A stretch of 10,874 nt of DNA from the UHGV virus genome UHGV-0126855. One strand, 5' to 3'. Numbering within the stretch: position 1 is the stretch's first letter; each line of letters starts with the position of its first letter. A program made the translations under genes and the position numbers. The stretch is from a virus. A model generated the notes under the pieces. It was not told the DNA's origin. It saw nothing but the letters and a program-made list of their open reading frames with translations, and did no database searches. Below, piece by piece: positions 17-7,578 of the stretch.

Positions 17-457
17 GTGATAACAGATGTCTGGAAATATAGGGGCAAATCCAGGAACCCAGAAATACTTCCAGATCACTGGATGTATTACGCGATGCTT
101 TTGTGTATCAGTTATGTTCTGAACAGGGTGATGGAGTTTATATTTCTGGCATCTTCAGACAGATATAAAAAATATCTCAGTAAGAGAGATGAGGCTAAAG
201 TAATTGTGGAGACTGAGCGCCTGTTCAATTCTCTGAGTATTCAGGAAAAAGAGGTTTTAGCATTTGCTGTTATGGCAAATAACAAAATCGTACTTAAGCA
301 CGGCGATCCGGTCGCTTTATCTCTTATGAGAAAAGGCCTTCTCCATCGCTCAGGTGTGACTTACAGCGCGTCAGGTAAAGAGAAATTTGTTATACCTGAC
401 GTCTGGTTCCATGAGTGTTATATGCGCTTTGCTGGTAAAGCTGATGAGCTAATTTAG
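17..457 (+). CDS. Hypothetical protein (146 aa), convergent with the N-like gene; start codon uncertain
   Basis: Complete ORF in the six-frame track, followed by a hairpin and T-run at 464-507. It begins at GTG 17 without a convincing SD, and the next in-frame Met is at nt 83. No motif recognised. Confidence 0.45.
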   Translation: MITDVWKYRGKSRNPEILPDHWMYYAMLLCISYVLNRVMEFIFLASSDRYKKYLSKRDEAKVIVETERLFNSLSIQEKEVLAFAVMANNKIVLKHGDPVALSLMRKGLLHRSGVTYSASGKEKFVIPDVWFHECYMRFAGKADELI

Positions 458-463
458 TTCCTC

Positions 464-507
464 GACGGCGGGGGATCGTCATCTCGCCGTCAGTTGTTTT
501 GATTTCC
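464..507 (+). terminator. Putative intrinsic terminator after the 17..457 gene
   Basis: Inverted repeat gacggcgg (464-472) / ctcgccgtc (483-491) gives a ~9-bp stem with one G-T pair and a ~10-nt loop, followed by the T-rich agttgttttgatttcc. It overlaps the 3' end of the minus-strand N-like ORF. Confidence 0.4.
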
Positions 508-862
508 GGTATCCTGCTGCGTAAAGAGCTACATCTGGAAGACATACACCAGTTTCTGGTTGCTTATGTCCAAACTCATTCGCGTACACAATGGCCGCTC
601 TCTCCAGATTGCGTCTGTATTCTTTCTGTTGCCAGATCACGTCCTGTGCCATGAACTTAATTGGCTTAGCGTCTTCTATGCGCTCAGGCGTTTCGTGTTT
701 ACCTTTAGCCTGAATCTGTGCCCGACTGAGGGTAGGGCGATGAAGTTTCTCTGAACTGATAACCTCTTCACGAGCTTCAACACCATGTGCAATGGCTTGC
801 GCCTTTAAACGTTCACGGCGACGAGCTGCTGATGAACCTTTGAAAGCTGTTCTGCGTGTCAT
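479..862 (-). CDS. N-like transcription antiterminator (about 127 aa from ATG 862; the ORF track extends it to GTG 910)
   Basis: The N-terminus MTRRTAFKGSSAARRRERLKAQA is an arginine-rich motif resembling lambda N (…TRRRERRAEKQAQ…). SD AGGAGG (plus-strand cctcct 869-874) sits 6 nt upstream of ATG 862. The gene lies immediately downstream of pL, as N does in lambda. Confidence 0.6.
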   Translation of the reverse strand: MTRRTAFKGSSAARRRERLKAQAIAHGVEAREEVISSEKLHRPTLSRAQIQAKGKHETPERIEDAKPIKFMAQDVIWQQKEYRRNLERAAIVYANEFGHKQPETGVCLPDVALYAAGYRKSKQLTAR

Positions 863-977
863 GGTGACCTCCTGATGAACTTTGGTGATGTGGGCGGTAA
901 CCAGCCGCACAAGTCAGGGCCATCTTCACGTTTTACCCTTTCTCGCTTGCCACATCCCAAAGTTCACTTTGGTTATC

Positions 978-1303: not shown

Positions 1304-2347
1304 TTAAAGAATACTTGCCAGATACTTAAGTTGTCTTTGATATCGAGTAACCGACTGGTTAACTTGTAACCTTTTCCCTTCACTTACTGTATGGAAGCGA
1401 CCAACTTTTAGCTGTGATATTGGTATGCTTTCAGCCCCACTAATTTGCCCGCTTGATACAAAATCATCTGTAACCACAATTGCTTTGCTAACATCTTCAT
1501 CGGCAAAGAGATGACTGTATTTTTCAGCGATTTTTACAGCTCTCTCTATGTACATTTGAGATGCGCGACCTGGTGTTGATGATTTACGGCTTTTTGAACC
1601 AGCCATTGTCATTACGATCGCTGCTACTTTTGGAGCCCCAAGCCCACCCGCACGCTCATTCCATAATACAAAATCTTTTGATTTATTTGCCAGCATTTCC
1701 ATTGTGAGATGAAGTGACTCAATTGAGTGTTCATCTACGCGTACAGGGATAATCAATGCCTCAGACGCGCACCATGCTAGGTGTGTTCCTCCAGCATAGA
1801 AGGGGCTTGTATCCATCAATAAAATTTCGCATTTTTTGTCTTTCGCTTCATCGTTCATTATTGCGCGAAGAGAATTTAATAGTGTTGATACTGCTTTTGG
1901 TTCTCCGCGAGATAGCGCTACTTGTAGTTGTTGATACATGCTTGATGGGAAAGCGAATAGCTCAGGATCACCTGGAATCGCATAACATGCCTTACCACCT
2001 TTAAAATCTGGGCAGAAATTACTTACTCGATATGAAATATCTTCTGGCTGCTCACCAAAAGCTGGACCCAGCATTTTTGGTGTCAGTGCATTAGCTATTG
2101 TTACAACCGGTTTTTCACCACGCAATAGTGTCTCCGTTAAATTACATTGCGGGCATAAGTCAGCCACTAATACGGAGTTACGTCGTGACAGCTCATAGGC
2201 GAGGTTGAATGTCATCGTGGACTTACCAACACCACCGCGCAGATTGGAAACTGCATAACTTTTGAATTTTGGCCCGCCATCTACGACGTAACCTTCCTCA
2301 ACAACTTGTGCATAGCGTGCCATTACTGACTCAACTACAGTGCTCAT
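1304..2347 (-). CDS. ParA/MinD/Soj-family P-loop ATPase (347 aa) with a ~100-aa uncharacterised C-terminal extension; orphan, with no ParB partner
   Basis: Deviant Walker A RGGVGKST (aa 37-44), A' motif VLVADLCPQCNLT (aa 59-71) and Walker B-like EILLMDTSP (aa 174-182). Strong SD AAGGAGG (plus-strand cctcct 2355-2360) sits 7 nt from ATG. It has its own promoter region and is flanked by terminators. Confidence 0.8.
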   Translation of the reverse strand: MSTVVESVMARYAQVVEEGYVVDGGPKFKSYAVSNLRGGVGKSTMTFNLAYELSRRNSVLVADLCPQCNLTETLLRGEKPVVTIANALTPKMLGPAFGEQPEDISYRVSNFCPDFKGGKACYAIPGDPELFAFPSSMYQQLQVALSRGEPKAVSTLLNSLRAIMNDEAKDKKCEILLMDTSPFYAGGTHLAWCASEALIIPVRVDEHSIESLHLTMEMLANKSKDFVLWNERAGGLGAPKVAAIVMTMAGSKSRKSSTPGRASQMYIERAVKIAEKYSHLFADEDVSKAIVVTDDFVSSGQISGAESIPISQLKVGRFHTVSEGKRLQVNQSVTRYQRQLKYLASIL

Positions 2348-2371
2348 ATGAATTCCTCCTTTAAATTTTGA

Positions 2372-2402
2372 ATATTAAAGCACCACAATGATGCAGGAGC
2401 AA
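2372..2402 (-). promoter_or_regulatory. Putative sigma-70 promoter for the ParA-like gene
   Basis: Minus strand reads TTGCTC (-35; plus 2397-2402), a 17-nt spacer, then TTTAAT (-10; plus 2374-2379). The -35 overlaps the promoter-proximal copy of the 19-bp repeat. Confidence 0.4.
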
Positions 2403-2476
2403 TAAAAAAGTGCAGGAGAATGTAAAATTAGCAGGTGAATTAAAAATGCGCAGGAGATGTGATGTTTTGCAGGTTG
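2392..2476. repeat. Five direct repeats of GCAGG(A/T)(G/T) at exact 19-bp phasing
   Basis: Core starts at 2393, 2412, 2431, 2450 and 2469 (gcaggag, gcaggag, gcaggtg, gcaggag, gcaggtt), separated by AT-rich spacers, upstream of the ParA-like gene. Confidence 0.7.
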
Positions 2477-2570
2477 ACTGAACAAATGCTGATGTATACC
2501 TCGTTTGTAGATAGGTATGTTAATTGCTATATAACATGCTTATGTTATTGATATTTATATATATTAATCA

Positions 2571-2598
2571 TAAAAAAAGGCCGCACTTCTGTGCGACC
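2571..2598 (-). terminator. Intrinsic terminator immediately downstream of cI
   Basis: Minus-strand RNA GGUCGCAC-AGAA-GUGCGGCC has an 8-bp stem with one G-U pair, followed by U7 (plus-strand A-run 2572-2578). It separates cI from the ParA-like gene. Confidence 0.65.
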
Positions 2599-2603
2599 TT
2601 TCA

Positions 2604-3320
<717 letters not shown>

Positions 3321-4084: not shown

Positions 4085-4231
4085 ATGACAAAACAACTCA
4101 GTCCTTACCAGGACAAAATTCACAAACACATACTACGTGATCGCTTCCTGTCCAGCTTCAAGCAGCCTGGTCGATTCCGGGCTGAGTTGGAAAAAGTGAA
4201 GCTGATGCAGAAGGAGAAAGGTCATGAGTAA
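4085..4231 (+). CDS. Small hypothetical protein (48 aa) between cII and the O-like gene
   Basis: ATG 4085 is preceded by SD aggag (4075-4079). The [51 protein letters not shown] overlaps the O-like start by 8 nt. It is absent from the ORF track (presumably below its length cutoff). Confidence 0.4.
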
Positions 4232-5123
4232 CATATCTAATCTAGCCGAAGCCAGAGAGGCCAGAAGGCTACAACAACCGCATCAAAGCAGCGGTAAGGG
4301 GTATGCCTTGCTGCACCGTAAAATTATGGATGTGCCGTTTTACAAGGACGCAGAAGCAGCGCATCTGTGGGTTCACTTAATCCTCAAAGCAAAGCATACG
4401 CCTGAGTATGTAATGACTGACGCAGGAGAAATTCTGGTAGGCAGAGGGAAGCTACTTGGCGGTAGAAACTCTCTGGCGTTTGAAACAGGACTCAAACCAG
4501 ATCGCGTTCAGTACCTGCTTAGAAAGTTCAAAAAACTCGGCATGATTGACTGGGTTTCACACGGTAAATTCTCAGTTTTCTCGGTAGAGAAATATGACGA
4601 TTATCAGTCAAATTTTGTACCAGCAGATTACCAGCAAATTACCACCTCAAAGCCAGCAATACCAATGCCTGCAAGCAATACTGTACCAGCAGATTACCAG
4701 CAAATTACCACAGATAAAGAATATAATAATATTATCTCTAATACTGACGTATTAGAGAGTGCCACAGCAGACAAAAAGTCTGACAAGAAAAAACCTTCCG
4801 TCAGCTGTCAGGATGTTGTCGATGCTTACCACGAAATCCTTCCTGAAGCGCCAAGAATCCGCGCACTGAATGACAAGCGTAAAAACCAGATCCGAACGTT
4901 CTGGCGCAAAGCCGGAGTGATAACCCGCCAGCTTGACGGGCATGGGTTCACGATGCAGGACTGGAGAAATTATTTGAGCTACGTAGGCGAAAATTGCCGA
5001 TGGATGTTCGAAGAACGCCCAAACCATCAACGCGGAACCGTCTGGCACAAAAAGGGATTTGATTTCCTGCTTAACGACAATACCTACCTGAAAGTTCGTG
5101 AGGGTGAACACGATGACCGATAA
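4224..5123 (+). CDS. O-like replication initiator (299 aa) with the origin embedded in its coding sequence
   Basis: It occupies the O position upstream of the helicase. SD aaggag (4211-4216) precedes ATG 4224. Internal iteron DNA encodes the repeated peptide [10 protein letters not shown]. The stop overlaps the helicase start. Confidence 0.7.
4616..4745. repeat. Putative replication origin: iterons plus an AT-rich tract
   Basis: Identical 30-bp direct repeats tgtaccagcagattaccagcaaattaccac lie at 4616-4645 and 4682-4711. Each holds two ~13-bp sub-iterons CCAGCA(G/A)ATTACC, with a degenerate copy ccagcaatacc between them. The AT-rich agataaagaatataataatattatctctaatact follows. Confidence 0.6.
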
Positions 5124-7578
5124 TTTTTATGCGCCGCCCCATAGCATCGAGGCAGAGCAGGCGGTGATTGGTGGATTGCTTCTGGATGATGACAGCAGTG
5201 AGCGCGTCCAGAAAGTTCTGGCGATGCTGAAGCCTGATTCATTTTACAGCCGACCACACAAAATCCTTTTCGAAGAAATAACCAGAATGCACCGGGAGCA
5301 AAAGCCAGTAGATGGCCTGACGCTTTTCGATGAACTGGAGCGTAAATCGTTAACGGCGTCTGTTGGCGGTTTTGCTTATATCTCTGAGATCGCAAAGAAC
5401 ACGCCAAGCGCAGCAAACATCGTTGCCTATGCAATGCAGGTTCGTGAAACCGCAATGGAACGCTACGCCATCAACCGCATGACTGAAGCGACGGAATTGC
5501 TCTATTCCCGCAACGGAATGACTGCAACGCAGAAGTACGAAGCTATTCAGGCGATTTTCACGCAACTGACAGATCATGCAAAAACCGGATCGCGTCGCGG
5601 CCTTCGTTCATTTGGTGAGGTCATGGAAGACTGGGTTAGCGACCTTGAGAAGCGATTTGACCCGTCAGGCGAACAACGAGGAATGAGCACAGGGATCCCA
5701 TCGCTGGACAGGATGCTGTCACCGAAAGGTCTGGTGAAAGGCTCTCTGTTTGTCATTGGCGCTCGCCCTAAGATGGGGAAAGCGCAACCGCTTAATTCAC
5801 GCATTTTGCTTGCTGATGGTTCATGGACAACATTTCGTGACGTATGTGTTGGAGATTCCCTAGCATCAGTGGATGGACAACCATCATTCGTGTCTGGAGT
5901 TTTTCCTCAAGGGGAGCGAGATATTTACCGAGTTACGTTCTCTGACGGAAGAACCGTTGATTGCGCGGATGATCATTTGTGGGAAATTCATAGTAACCGT
6001 ATTACCGGTGGCGTTGATGTTGTAGACACCTGCCGCCTACGGGACATGATGGAATGCGTTCGCTATCAAAGCCGCATTCATGTTCCTGGTATTAGCGGTG
6101 ACTTCGGATTGCCTGTTGATTTAGGGATTAGCCCATGGCTGTTAGGTGCGTTACTTGGCGATGGAAATCTTGCAGGTACGCCACGAATCAGCATGACGGA
6201 ACCATACATCATTGAGCGAGTAAGATCTGAAGTGGGTGACGATATTGAAGTCAGACATGTTTCTGGCTGCGATTACTCCCTATCTCACAAGTTTAGCCGC
6301 AAATTATCTCTTACGCGGGTTATGCAACGGATTGGTATCTACGGCCGGATGTCAGAGATTAAAATTATCCCGGATATTATTTTTTCTGCTGATAAGCAAA
6401 CTCGTATTGATGTTCTATGCGGATTACTTGAAACCGATGGTTGGGTTGAAGGAAATAATGCCCTGCGCTTTAGCTCGGCAAGCAAGTTCCTGTCAGATGG
6501 TGTAAAGCGGCTGGTGCATTCTCTTGGTGGCGTGTGTCGTATGACAACCAAACAGGAGCCGAAATTCAGTTATAAGGGAGAAATGCGCAAAGGTATGGAT
6601 GCCCATATTTGCGCAATCAGGTTGCCTGATGAGGTTCTATCACACATAAAATCTCCACGCCTGAAGCAAAAATTCACTGCAAAACGCATCAAAACAAGTG
6701 CGCCTGTTATCACGTCGGTTGAGTATATTGGACGTGAAGAGTGCATTTGCATCATGGTATCCCACGAGAGACATTTGTATGCAACTGACGGATACATTCT
6801 AACCCACAACACCACGCTATACAGCCAGATGGCAATCAACTGCGCAGTGTATGAGAAAAAGCCCGCTCTGATATTCAGCCTTGAAATGCCAGGTGATCAG
6901 ATACTGGAAAAACTGGTAGGGCAGAAGTCTGGTGTTAACCCGAATATTTTTTACCTTCCGGCGACAAATGACGCCGATGACGGCTATCAGGGTGATTACG
7001 ATGGTGACTTCAACAGGGCGATCGAAACAGCCAATCGCTTGAGTGAAATCGACATGCTTTACATCGACGACACGCCGGGATTATCTCTGGCTCAAATCGT
7101 CAGCGAAAGCCGTCGAATCAAGCGAGAAAAAGGATGTGTTGGCATGATTCTGGTCGATTACCTGACACTAATGACCGCTGAGAAGGCCGATCGCAACGAC
7201 CTTGCTTACGGCATGATCACCAAAGGACTGAAGAACCTTGCCAAAGAGCTTGATTGCGTTGTTGTGCTTCTGACGCAGCTTAACCGCGCACTGGAAAGCC
7301 GAACCAATAAACGCCCATTACCAAGTGACTCGCGCGATACAGGGCAGATTGAACAGGATTGCGATTATTGGGTGGGGATCCATCGTGAAGGTGCTTTTGA
7401 TGACAGTGTTCCACCTGGTGAAACCGAACTAATCCTTCGTCTCAATCGTCATGGCAATACCGGCACGGTGTATTGCATTCAGGCAAATGGCGCTATTTAT
7501 GACACAGACCAACAGTCTGCTGAAATGCGCCGCCGTGAACGCGAGGAGCCGCAGTCCAAGAAGAAAGGAGGATTCTGA
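5113..7578 (+). CDS. DnaB-family replicative helicase, intein-containing (alternative start GTG 5098)
   Basis: N-terminus PPHSIEAEQAVIGGLLLD and the C-terminal half (KPALIFSLEMPGDQ…LTQLNRALESR…) align with E. coli DnaB from memory. The Walker A GARPKMGK|TT is split by a 343-aa insertion. Excluding the insert, the protein is about 470 aa. Confidence 0.9.
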   Translation: MTDNFYAPPHSIEAEQAVIGGLLLDDDSSERVQKVLAMLKPDSFYSRPHKILFEEITRMHREQKPVDGLTLFDELERKSLTASVGGFAYISEIAKNTPSAANIVAYAMQVRETAMERYAINRMTEATELLYSRNGMTATQKYEAIQAIFTQLTDHAKTGSRRGLRSFGEVMEDWVSDLEKRFDPSGEQRGMSTGIPSLDRMLSPKGLVKGSLFVIGARPKMGKAQPLNSRILLADGSWTTFRDVCVGDSLASVDGQPSFVSGVFPQGERDIYRVTFSDGRTVDCADDHLWEIHSNRITGGVDVVDTCRLRDMMECVRYQSRIHVPGISGDFGLPVDLGISPWLLGALLGDGNLAGTPRISMTEPYIIERVRSEVGDDIEVRHVSGCDYSLSHKFSRKLSLTRVMQRIGIYGRMSEIKIIPDIIFSADKQTRIDVLCGLLETDGWVEGNNALRFSSASKFLSDGVKRLVHSLGGVCRMTTKQEPKFSYKGEMRKGMDAHICAIRLPDEVLSHIKSPRLKQKFTAKRIKTSAPVITSVEYIGREECICIMVSHERHLYATDGYILTHNTTLYSQMAINCAVYEKKPALIFSLEMPGDQILEKLVGQKSGVNPNIFYLPATNDADDGYQGDYDGDFNRAIETANRLSEIDMLYIDDTPGLSLAQIVSESRRIKREKGCVGMILVDYLTLMTAEKADRNDLAYGMITKGLKNLAKELDCVVVLLTQLNRALESRTNKRPLPSDSRDTGQIEQDCDYWVGIHREGAFDDSVPPGETELILRLNRHGNTGTVYCIQANGAIYDTDQQSAEMRRREREEPQSKKKGGF
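5782..6810 (+). other. Intein (~343 aa) with a LAGLIDADG homing endonuclease domain, inserted in the helicase P-loop
   Basis: The insert lies between GARPKMGK and TT(LYSQMAINCAV). It ends in THN followed by Thr +1 (nt 6802-6813). Two LAGLIDADG-type motifs are present: LLGALLGDGNL (aa 348-358) and LCGLLETDGWV (aa 440-450). The N-terminal boundary at Ala229 is inferred to within a few residues. Confidence 0.75.

What the first reader, a model, noticed from the sequence alone, without database searches (positions are those of the whole stretch)
2392..2476. Five copies of GCAGG(A/T)(G/T) at exact 19-bp phasing upstream of the ParA-like gene
Core starts at 2393, 2412, 2431, 2450 and 2469 are each exactly 19 bp apart, separated by AT-rich spacers. 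The promoter-proximal copy overlaps the predicted -35 (TTGCTC) of the ParA-like gene. This looks like an ordered protein-binding array: an operator for autoregulation, a centromere-like site for the ATPase, or a sensing site. The 19-bp period is off the helical repeat, so successive sites rotate around the helix, as in some parC/iteron arrays.
Basis: seen in the sequence. Interest (0 to 1): 0.6.

Follow-up and report, generated by a model that had tools for sequence, protein, structure and literature searches.

The report
Conserved CCTGCA repeat array before ParA-like gene
The five evenly spaced repeats are real. They belong to a strictly spaced DNA motif array that sits on the promoter of an unusual ParA-like ATPase gene in bacteria of at least seven phyla and in their phages and transposons, so it is almost certainly a protein-binding control site that has not been described.

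Summary
In detail: five GCAGG cores start at 2393, 2412, 2431, 2450 and 2469, exactly 19 bp apart. No 5-mer reached a phased run above 3 in 300 shuffles of the window.

On the gene's own (-) strand the motif reads CCTGC(A). The proximal copy overlaps a predicted -35.

The array is conserved far beyond E. coli. It is present in 45 of 47 genome loci and 45 of 45 viral loci that encode this ParA-like protein (57-100% identity, at least 7 phyla). These loci carry 3-12 sense-oriented CCTGC(A) cores with gaps of almost only 9 or 19 bp. Cores stay invariant while spacers drift.

The cassette (array plus gene) sits next to CI repressors in temperate phages, in the position of lambda rexAB. In a P2-like phage it lies after int/attP. 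In other genomes it lies inside IS1-family transposons with 8-bp target duplications. The ParA-like gene is the only partner present in every case.

My best explanation is a cooperative operator or nucleation lattice bound by the ParA-like ATPase itself, which represses its own promoter. The array's conservation and position are shown. The identity of the binder is inferred.

One thing is unexplained. The same 9/19 lattice occurs without the gene inside reading frames of many unrelated phages.

No curated family, defence model, Rfam family or paper matched.

The parts
2392..2476 (-). The whole array: five CCTGC(A) cores at a 19-bp period, in the same sense as the ParA-like gene
2469..2473 (-). 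Core 1 (distal), CCTGC followed by A
   Evidence: invariant in 5 E. coli prophages
2450..2454 (-). Core 2, CCTGC followed by G
2431..2435 (-). Core 3, CCTGC followed by T
2412..2416 (-). Core 4, CCTGC followed by A
2393..2397 (-). Core 5 (promoter-proximal), CCTGC followed by A; overlaps the last base of the -35
2397..2402 (-). Predicted -35, TTGCTC. This is weak (3 of 6 matches to TTGACA) and was not called by the consensus scan
   Evidence: TTG(A/C)TC is conserved at this register in 11 distinct enterobacterial arrays. TTGnnC abutting a core recurs in other phyla. Not called
2374..2382 (-). Predicted extended -10, TGcTTTAAT, 17 bp after the -35. It is atypical because it lacks A at position 2
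   Evidence: TTTGTGGTGnTTnAAT is conserved in the clade; inference
2355..2360 (-). Shine-Dalgarno sequence AGGAGG of the ParA-like gene
1304..2347 (-). ParA-like orphan ATPase gene, 347 aa, Walker A RGGVGKS. It is the only gene always linked to the array
2477..2571 (-). AT-rich filler (GC 0.24) between the cI terminator and the array. It is absent in Pseudescherichia and Rahnella relatives, where the terminator abuts the array
2572..2602 (-). Intrinsic terminator of the upstream cI gene. It marks the upstream boundary of the cassette

Best explanation
The array is the cis-acting control region of a self-contained mobile cassette made of the array plus the ParA-like ATPase gene. It is a one-orientation lattice of CCTGC(A) sites separated by 9 or 19 bp, with a T-tract in each 19-bp gap. 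It runs for about 85-170 bp from the upstream boundary into the -35, spacer and -10 of the gene's promoter. A protein binds it cooperatively, probably wrapping or coating the DNA, because a rise of about 9.5 bp per site is off the 10.5-bp helical repeat. This occludes the promoter and holds expression of the ATPase at a set level. By elimination the binder is the ParA-like protein itself, since it is the only product encoded in every cassette. That would make the array an autorepression operator and possibly also a loading site. What is shown: the array exists; it is far beyond chance; cores, spacing, orientation and promoter overlap are conserved across phyla; it acts as DNA and not as leader RNA; and it is linked to this gene whatever the neighbours are. 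What is inferred: that a protein binds it, that the protein is the ATPase, and that the effect is repression.
For: Sense-strand CCTGC occurs at 26.3 per kb in the 220 nt upstream of the gene, against 1.9 per kb elsewhere in the loci and 3.0 per kb on the antisense strand upstream. Gaps between cores are 9 (65 cases), 19 (111) or 28 (19) out of 215. Every 28-bp gap holds a degenerate CCAGCA at +19. Viral loci give gaps of 9 (50 cases) and 19 (177) out of 244. The array is present in 45 of 47 genome loci and 45 of 45 viral loci with 57-100% protein identity. The two exceptions are genes truncated at the 5' end, and a relative at 32% identity has no array. In two E. coli prophages about 3% diverged across the cassette, all 7 substitutions within the array fall in spacers. 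Across 11 distinct enterobacterial arrays, cores are 100% conserved and spacers 68%. Cores start at +5 and +14, or at +7 and +26, from the first base of the best -35-like hexamer (sequences). An upstream terminator abuts the array in L005, L006 and L023, so the array is not a transcribed leader. Folded as RNA, the region gives z = -0.98. Neighbours differ between loci (CI repressors, IS1 transposase, int/attP) while only the ParA-like gene is constant. From established knowledge: ParA/MinD ATPases bind DNA as ATP dimers, and partition operons are typically autoregulated through iterated sites at their promoters.
Against: No binding data exist. The AlphaFold model (pLDDT 87) shows only a ParA/Soj fold plus a short C-terminal hairpin and helix. 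It has no recognisable sequence-specific DNA-binding domain such as the HTH of type Ia ParA. Symmetric ParA dimers would be expected to favour inverted repeats, not direct repeats. Arrays with the same grammar occur in about 20 independent phage families that have no ParA-like gene in the fetched DNA, so some other binder may exist. The window's predicted promoter is weak and atypical and was not called by the consensus scan.
Confidence: 0.55

Rival explanations
1. The array is bound by a different trans-acting protein, encoded by a phage, another mobile element or the host. In this reading the array is a sensing or regulatory site shared with the look-alike arrays in other phage genomes, and the ParA-like gene is a regulated target.
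For: Arrays with the same 9/19 grammar, the same CCTGCA core and the same T-tract occur without the gene in about 20 independent phage families. In these families nothing homologous to the ParA-like protein or to its termini was found in the fetched DNA. A small basic ORF family accompanies the cassette in 17 genome loci and sits next to a ParA-less array in L073. The ParA-like model has no obvious specific DNA-binding domain.
Against: The cassette keeps its array in at least 7 phyla and in contexts that share no other gene. An external binder would therefore need to be universal with unchanging specificity, and no known universal factor recognises CCTGCA. The small basic ORF is absent from the window and from most phage cassettes. 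Sites inside the -35/-10 spacer fit repression better than activation by an invader.
Confidence: 0.2
2. The array is a centromere-like site. The ATPase acts on the DNA that carries it to position or segregate the element, in an adaptor-less partition system, and any promoter control is secondary.
For: The protein has a ParA/Soj fold. Iterated sites upstream of parA are the usual centromere layout in type Ib and type II systems (established knowledge). The PHROGs match is to 'ParA-like partition protein'.
Against: The cassette sits in integrated prophages and in small IS elements that do not need partition. There is no ParB/ParG/ParR-type gene in the window or in most loci. The protein scores far below the curated cut-off of the ParA_partition model, 36.7 bits against 180.
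Confidence: 0.1
3. No dedicated binder exists. The repeats are stacked promoter, UP-element or curved-DNA modules that recruit RNA polymerase.
For: T-tracts and TTG occur in the 19-bp units, and the proximal unit supplies the -35.
Against: The invariant part is CCTGC, which is not an RNA polymerase contact. TTG is only weakly conserved in the distal units. The motif is the same in phyla with different promoter consensus, such as Bacteroidota.
Confidence: 0.05
4. The element acts as RNA. Either it is a leader with CUCCU anti-Shine-Dalgarno repeats, or it is an antisense RNA on the + strand with CsrB-like GCAGGA repeats.
For: In the window the - strand motif CUCCUGC is complementary to the AGGAGG Shine-Dalgarno sequence. 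The + strand motif GCAGGAG resembles CsrA sites (sequence; own knowledge).
Against: Terminators abut the array and the promoter lies inside it. The RNA fold gives z = -0.98. Rfam gave no credible hit. No + strand promoter was found. Across phyla the base after GCAGG is mostly T, not A, so there is no GGA. The array occurs in phyla that lack CsrA or typical Shine-Dalgarno use.
Confidence: 0.03
5. The repeats are binding sites for the IS1-family transposase that accompanies the cassette in many genomes.
For: In at least 10 loci the array lies between divergent tnp and ParA-like genes inside one IS, and its distal end abuts the tnp start.
Against: The array is internal to the element, not terminal. 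The true terminal inverted repeats have a different sequence, GGTAGTGGGTCAGTTTGAA. The array is fully conserved where no transposase or inverted repeat exists, including this window.
Confidence: 0.03

Closest known systems
pSM19035 delta/omega system: 7-bp heptad arrays upstream of the ParA-type delta gene (own knowledge)
   Same: Arrays of a short 6-7 bp motif lie upstream of a Walker-type ParA gene and cover its promoter. They serve as operator and centromere and are bound cooperatively.
   Different: In pSM19035 a separate ribbon-helix-helix protein (omega) reads contiguous 7-bp heptads. Here no adaptor gene is present, the sites are 9 or 19 bp apart and all in one orientation, and the element is a prophage or IS cassette, not a plasmid.
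R1 parC/ParR, pSK41 parC and TP228 parH/ParG iterated centromeres (own knowledge)
   Same: Phased direct repeats (11-bp, 20-bp, tetramer boxes) surround the promoter of the partition operon. The off-helical period leads to wrapped or superhelical complexes and to autoregulation.
   Different: The binder in those systems is ParR or ParG, not the NTPase. Here the motif, the spacing and the lack of a second gene all differ.
Type Ia ParA autorepressors (P1 ParA, F SopA) (own knowledge)
   Same: The ParA ATPase itself binds its operator and represses its own promoter. This is the function proposed here.
   Different: Those proteins have an N-terminal HTH domain of about 100 aa and an inverted-repeat operator. 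This protein has only one helix (residues 4-18) before the P-loop, and its sites are direct repeats.
Accessory-gene (moron) slots of temperate phages: lambda rexAB, BstA, P2 hotspots (own knowledge; PMC9122126 abstract for the P2/P4 hotspots)
   Same: The position is the same, immediately downstream of cI and upstream of pL/N. In other E. coli prophages this slot holds BstA-C-terminal-domain, P63C-domain or hypothetical genes. In RsoM1USA the gene lies after int/attP.
   Different: No defence phenotype is known for this gene, and no PADLOC model matches it.
MraZ boxes (own knowledge)
   Same: A short 5-bp motif in same-orientation repeats at a fixed period of about 10 bp covers a promoter, is conserved across phyla, and is bound by a multimer that represses its own operon.
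   Different: The motif is different (GTGGG) and so is the protein fold. MraZ is chromosomal and vertically inherited.
Lambda, P1 and F 19-bp iterons (own knowledge)
   Same: Direct repeats with a unit of about 19 bp. Lambda's iterons lie inside an ORF, as the ParA-less phage arrays do.
   Different: Iterons are conserved along their full length and bound by a neighbouring Rep or O protein at an origin. Here only 6 bp are conserved and there is no Rep gene. This prophage's own iterons are elsewhere, at 4618-4715.

Membership tests
Type I (Walker-type) ParABS partition cassette | ATPase with ParA/MinD fold and deviant Walker A | tested here: met
   Pfam AAA_31 at 2.8e-13 and CbiA at 1.4e-09. 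Foldseek top hits are Soj, ParA and McdA, with TM 0.45-0.57 normalised to the query. The signature Lys is replaced by an invariant Arg, RGGVGKS.
Type I (Walker-type) ParABS partition cassette | Reaches the curated ParA partition family threshold | tested here: not met
   NCBIfam ParA_partition scores 36.7 bits against a cut-off of 180. No NCBIfam model is passed.
Type I (Walker-type) ParABS partition cassette | Adjacent gene for a centromere-binding adaptor (ParB, ParG, omega or ParR) | tested here: not met
   In the window the gene is flanked by cI with its terminator on one side and by pL/N on the other. No partner gene is conserved across loci. A small basic ORF is present only in a subset.
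Type I (Walker-type) ParABS partition cassette | Iterated cis site at or upstream of the parA promoter | tested here: met
   The array at 2392-2476 is conserved in 90 of 92 loci. Its function as a centromere cannot be tested here.
Type I (Walker-type) ParABS partition cassette | Resides on a replicon that needs active partition | tested here: not met
   All five full-length E. coli matches are chromosomal, and the four fetched lie in integrated lambdoid prophages. Elsewhere the cassette lies in 2.4-3.3 kb IS1-family elements with target site duplications.
Type Ia ParA autorepressor | N-terminal winged-HTH domain that binds the operator | tested here: not met
   The model has a single helix at residues 4-18 and then the P-loop strand at residue 30. 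There is no HTH Pfam hit.
Iteron-type replication origin | Adjacent initiator gene, full-length conserved iterons, AT-rich unwinding element | tested here: not met
   There is no Rep gene in the cassette. Only 6 of 19 bp are conserved. The prophage's own O-like gene carries separate 11-bp repeats at 4618-4715.
CsrB/RsmZ-like GGA-repeat RNA or other Rfam family | Transcribed RNA with GGA motifs in loops, or a match to a covariance model | tested here: not met
   No Rfam match came near its gathering score. The fold z-score is -0.98. The cross-phylum consensus after GCAGG is T.
Known anti-phage defence systems (PADLOC 2.0) | Match to a defence protein model | tested here: not met
   The only hit is PDC-M28B at E = 0.0011, over the P-loop alone.
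IS1-family transposon cargo | IS1-type DDE transposase, terminal inverted repeats and an 8-9 bp target duplication around the cassette | tested here: not met
   This is not met in the window, where no inverted-repeat match was found and there is no transposase. It is met in relatives: L033, L018 and L034 have inverted repeats GG(T/C)AGTGGGTCAGTTTGAA and 8-bp target duplications.

The most novel reading that the evidence does not exclude
The ParA-like ATPase reads the phased CCTGCA lattice directly, even though it has no classical DNA-binding domain. The look-alike lattices embedded in reading frames of many unrelated phages are then its targets, or decoys against it. That would make the cassette an array-sensing conflict system between mobile elements, either an anti-phage system or a regulator of transposition and immunity. 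It has been spread across phyla by IS1-family transposons and placed in the defence slots of lambdoid and P2-like prophages.
Probability: 0.15. Interest if true: 0.9.

Novelty: new variant of a known kind. Interest (0 to 1): 0.72.

Why it matters
If the inference holds, this is a one-gene ParA-family module that carries its own sequence-specific, strictly phased DNA lattice. The protein has stayed 57-100% identical and the motif unchanged while the cassette moved between at least seven bacterial phyla on transposons and prophages.

It would extend what ParA-type ATPases are known to do, because adaptor-less specific DNA recognition is not established for short ParAs. It would give a defined cis element for testing how such ATPases assemble on DNA.

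It would also point to an uncharacterised cargo function, such as defence, exclusion or transposon control, in the classic rexAB slot.

The same lattice hidden in three reading frames inside phage genes suggests a wider DNA signal in phage genomes that has not been recognised.

Tried and rejected
- **Rfam search of 1200-2700:** only sub-threshold hits driven by the terminator.
- **RNA fold of the leader:** not significant.
- **PADLOC, NCBIfam and Pfam:** nothing for the ATPase beyond a generic ParA/CbiA assignment.
- **PDB searches by sequence and by fold:** only generic Soj, ParA, McdA and MinD.
- **Literature:** seven searches (the protein accession, ParA plus IS1 or passenger gene, CCTGCA with iterons, ISMhu11, ParA-like defence, RsoM1USA) found no description. 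The RsoM1USA paper only lists ORF57 as 'ParA family protein'.
- **IS1 inverted-repeat remnants in the window:** none found.
- **HMMs of the whole protein and of its N- and C-termini against the ParA-less phage array loci:** no hits.
- **Clustering of neighbours of the ParA-less arrays:** only general temperate-phage early genes such as CI-like repressors, integrases and replication proteins, with no candidate binder.
- **Control scan at 21-bp spacing:** mostly in-frame coding repeats with no bias toward CCTGCA.
- **Ideas rejected:**
  - A CsrA-sponge RNA and a dnaX-like frameshift cassette were rejected because the required bases are not conserved across loci.
  - Lambda CII (TTGC-N6-TTGC) does not fit the sequence.
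- **Naive promoter scoring:** it is noisy and does not call the window's own TTGCTC-17-TTTAAT.

Full report
**What the window is.** It is the immunity region of a lambdoid E. coli prophage. The features are:
- a sieB-like gene at 17-457 (+);
- N at 479-910 (-);
- pL at 1089-1061 (-);
- a 347-aa ParA-like gene at 1304-2347 (-);
- cI at 2604-3317 (-), with its terminator at 2602-2572;
- cro, cII and an O-like gene;
- a DnaB-like helicase.

The ParA-like gene sits where lambda carries rexAB. In other E. coli prophages with the same flanks, this slot holds BstA-C-terminal-domain, P63C-domain or hypothetical genes. The full cassette occurs in only 5 of 5,426 complete E. coli genomes.

**The observation.** Five GCAGG cores start at 2393, 2412, 2431, 2450 and 2469, each exactly 19 bp after the last. 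TRF reports period 19. In 300 dinucleotide-preserving shuffles of the window, no 5-mer gave a phased run longer than 3, against the observed 5. On the gene's sense (-) strand the motif is CCTGC, followed by A in 3 of 5 copies. The proximal core (2397->2393) overlaps TTGCTC (2402->2397). Seventeen bp further on lies TGcTTTAAT (2382->2374), then AGGAGG (2360->2355) and the ATG at 2347. The simple consensus scan does not call this promoter. It is weak at the -35, and its -10 lacks the usual A at position 2.

**Conservation in close relatives.** Two of the five E. coli prophages that hold the cassette are about 3% diverged. All 7 substitutions inside the array fall in spacers, and all 25 core positions are unchanged. 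Across 11 distinct arrays of the enterobacterial clade (84-100% protein identity), cores are 100% conserved and spacers 68%. The block TTG(A/C)TC-CTGCAnnTTTGTGGTGnTTnAAT next to the gene is nearly invariant.

**Conservation in distant relatives.**
- *The protein family.* It is a tight family of 345-347 aa, with about 1,000 database relatives at E <= 0.001. It remains 57-70% identical across Pseudomonadota, Verrucomicrobiota, Acidobacteriota, Actinomycetota (including Mycobacterium), Myxococcota, Planctomycetota and Bacteroidota/Chlorobia.
- *Presence of the array.* In 45 of 47 genome loci with upstream DNA, and in 45 of 45 viral loci, the 200 nt before the start codon hold 3-12 sense-strand CCTGC cores. 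The two exceptions are genes truncated at the 5' end. The one relative at 32% identity has no array.
- *Density.* Sense-strand density is 26.3 per kb, against 1.9 per kb in the rest of the loci and 3.0 per kb antisense.
- *Spacing.* Gaps are 9 (65 cases), 19 (111) or 28 (19) out of 215 in genomes, and 9 (50) or 19 (177) out of 244 in viral loci. Every 28-bp gap contains a degenerate CCAGCA at +19.

The rule is therefore a single-orientation lattice with steps of 9 or 19 bp. The consensus is CCTGCA-n-TTTTT-n6-a for the 19-bp step and CCTGCAtcaCCTGCA for the 9-bp step. The window uses only 19-bp steps.

**DNA or RNA?** In the Pseudescherichia and Rahnella loci, the terminator of the upstream gene abuts the first core. 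The array is therefore the whole upstream region, not a leader. In many loci a canonical TTGnnC-17-TAnnnT is evident, with one core starting at +5 of the -35 and a second core filling the spacer at +14. A second register has cores at +7 and +26. Folded as RNA the region is unremarkable (z = -0.98), and Rfam finds nothing. The element acts as DNA, on and upstream of the promoter.

**Who is always there?** The neighbours vary.
- In about 20 viral loci a CI-like (HTH plus S24) repressor lies directly upstream on the same strand.
- In Ralstonia phage RsoM1USA, the only isolated phage with the gene, it follows int/attP, and the published paper only names it 'ParA family protein'.
- In at least 10 genome loci the array and gene lie inside an IS1-family element. 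It has a divergent DDE transposase, terminal inverted repeats GG(T/C)AGTGGGTCAGTTTGAA and 8-bp target duplications: CATATTCC in L033, GTCAAAAC in L018 and TCCGTAGG in L034.
- Seventeen genome loci (16 of them with E <= 1e-11) add a small basic ORF of about 80 aa after the gene, convergent with it. It is absent from the window and from most phage cassettes.

The only constant partner of the array is the ParA-like gene.

**The protein.** The AlphaFold model (pLDDT 87, pTM 0.89) has a ParA/Soj fold. It has one N-terminal helix, a conserved flexible loop at 294-305, and a C-terminal hairpin plus helix carrying an invariant R326, N330, S332, R335 and Y336. It has no HTH. The Walker A motif is RGGVGKS, with Arg replacing the ParA/MinD signature Lys in all 38 aligned sequences. 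It passes no curated NCBIfam threshold and matches no PADLOC defence model.

**Interpretation.** Four properties are what a cooperative protein-binding operator looks like: invariant cores, a strict 9/19 spacing, a single orientation and overlap with the promoter. They were kept while the cassette moved among phyla on different vehicles. A rise of about 9.5 bp per site is shorter than the helical repeat, so successive sites spiral around the DNA. With the phased T-tracts, this suggests a wrapped or coated complex.

An external binder would have to exist with the same specificity in every recipient phylum. The most economical candidate is therefore the cassette's own product, which would make the array an autorepression and nucleation site. 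I put this at about 0.55. The weak points are the lack of a recognisable specific DNA-binding domain and the direct-repeat geometry. The other readings are an external binder or sensing site (0.2), a centromere-like function (0.1), promoter or UP stacking (0.05), an RNA function (0.03) and transposase sites (0.03). The reasons are given under the rival explanations.

**An unexplained extension.**
My rough estimate of the chance expectation for 20 specified bases is below 1. Of the 120, 79 to 92 are not simple tandem repeats, depending on the cut-off used, and only 22 have the ParA-like gene.
- *Same grammar.* The rest fall into about 20 independent families that share the full pattern: CCTGCA, T-tract spacers and 9-bp doublets at the edges.
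- *Position in genes.* Most lie inside ORFs on the opposite strand. The ORFs include EaA/Ea22-like proteins of Klebsiella and enteric phages, a spanin junction in P. aeruginosa phages such as JBD44 and phi297, DUF968-like proteins, primase-like proteins and a 1,060-aa protein.
- *Read in three frames.* In these ORFs TGCAGG is read successively in all three frames, giving linkers of the form ...LQE...SAG...CRS...VQV.... A peptide constraint cannot produce this, so the signal is at the nucleic-acid level.
- *Strand bias.* In 12 of 12 intragenic cases TGCAGG is on the coding strand. One explanation is that the A-rich strand encodes tolerable K/E/Q-rich linkers.
- *Control.* A scan at 21-bp spacing gave mostly in-frame coding repeats with no preference for CCTGCA.
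- *No binder found.* No ParA-like homologue and no common candidate binder was found near these arrays.

Whether they are targets, decoys or sites for another protein is open.

**Comparison and novelty.** The layout works like the iterated operator/centromeres of type Ib and type II partition systems (omega heptads, parC, parH), and the proposed logic is like type Ia ParA autorepression. Membership in those families fails on tested features: there is no adaptor gene, no HTH, no plasmid context, and the protein scores below the curated thresholds. I found no description in the paper library, in Rfam, PADLOC or NCBIfam. I rate it a new variant of a known kind, with real potential to be more than that.

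Noticed in passing
L054-L173 (for example L072:688-749, L069:560-640, L076, L090, L114, L136); annotated phages KY271396.1 at 29672-30023 and KU199710.1 (JBD44) at gp43/gp44: Arrays with the same 9/19-bp CCTGCA grammar occur without the ParA-like gene in about 20 independent phage families. Most lie inside ORFs on the opposite strand, where TGCAGG is read in all three frames as an inter-domain linker. The function and the binder are unknown.
   Followed up: partly
L033:25-2413; L018:2672-5923; L034:2812-5916: In many non-enteric genomes the array plus the ParA-like gene is cargo of an IS1-family element. The element has a divergent DDE transposase, inverted repeats GG(T/C)AGTGGGTCAGTTTGAA and 8-bp target duplications. 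The distal end of the array abuts the apparently leaderless tnp start, so one binder could control both genes.
   Followed up: partly
L014:5031-5285(-), L015:5038-5280(-), L033:2108-2368(-); also L073:2885-3118(-): A conserved small basic ORF of about 80 aa, with C-terminus LGRKGGxKGGxARAxxLTPExRxEIAxKAAxxRW, lies after the ParA-like gene and convergent with it in 17 genome loci. In L073 it sits right next to a ParA-less array. It has no Pfam or NCBIfam family and only a partial hit to phrog_2384. It is absent from the window.
   Followed up: partly
window 1304-2347 (protein residues 36-43): The Walker A motif is LRGGVGKS. The ParA/MinD signature lysine is replaced by an arginine in all 38 aligned sequences, as in BcsQ. 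The protein is 57-70% identical across at least 7 phyla, with almost no change in length.
   Followed up: partly
window 4618-4644 and 4684-4715: Two blocks of 11-bp tandem repeats, TACCAGCA(A/G)AT, lie inside the O-like replication gene (4224-5123). They are probably this prophage's own origin iterons and are unrelated to the CCTGCA array.
   Followed up: no
window 5098-7578: The DnaB-like helicase is 826 aa. It has a weak LAGLIDADG hit at residues 439-485, between the DnaB N-terminal and C-terminal domains. The same gene is about 478 aa in related prophages (L002-L004). This suggests an intein or homing-endonuclease insertion.
   Followed up: no
window 1304-1089: No terminator-like site was found between the stop codon of the ParA-like gene and pL/OL. 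Transcripts from the ParA-like promoter might therefore read into the pL-N region.
   Followed up: no
MG747435.1 (Ralstonia phage RsoM1USA) 37106-38146; L193: This is the only isolated phage among 50,697 records that encodes this ParA-like protein (62% identity). The gene lies after int/attP of a P2-like phage. Its array is compressed and irregular, with gaps of 9, 13, 6 and 9 bp.
   Followed up: partly
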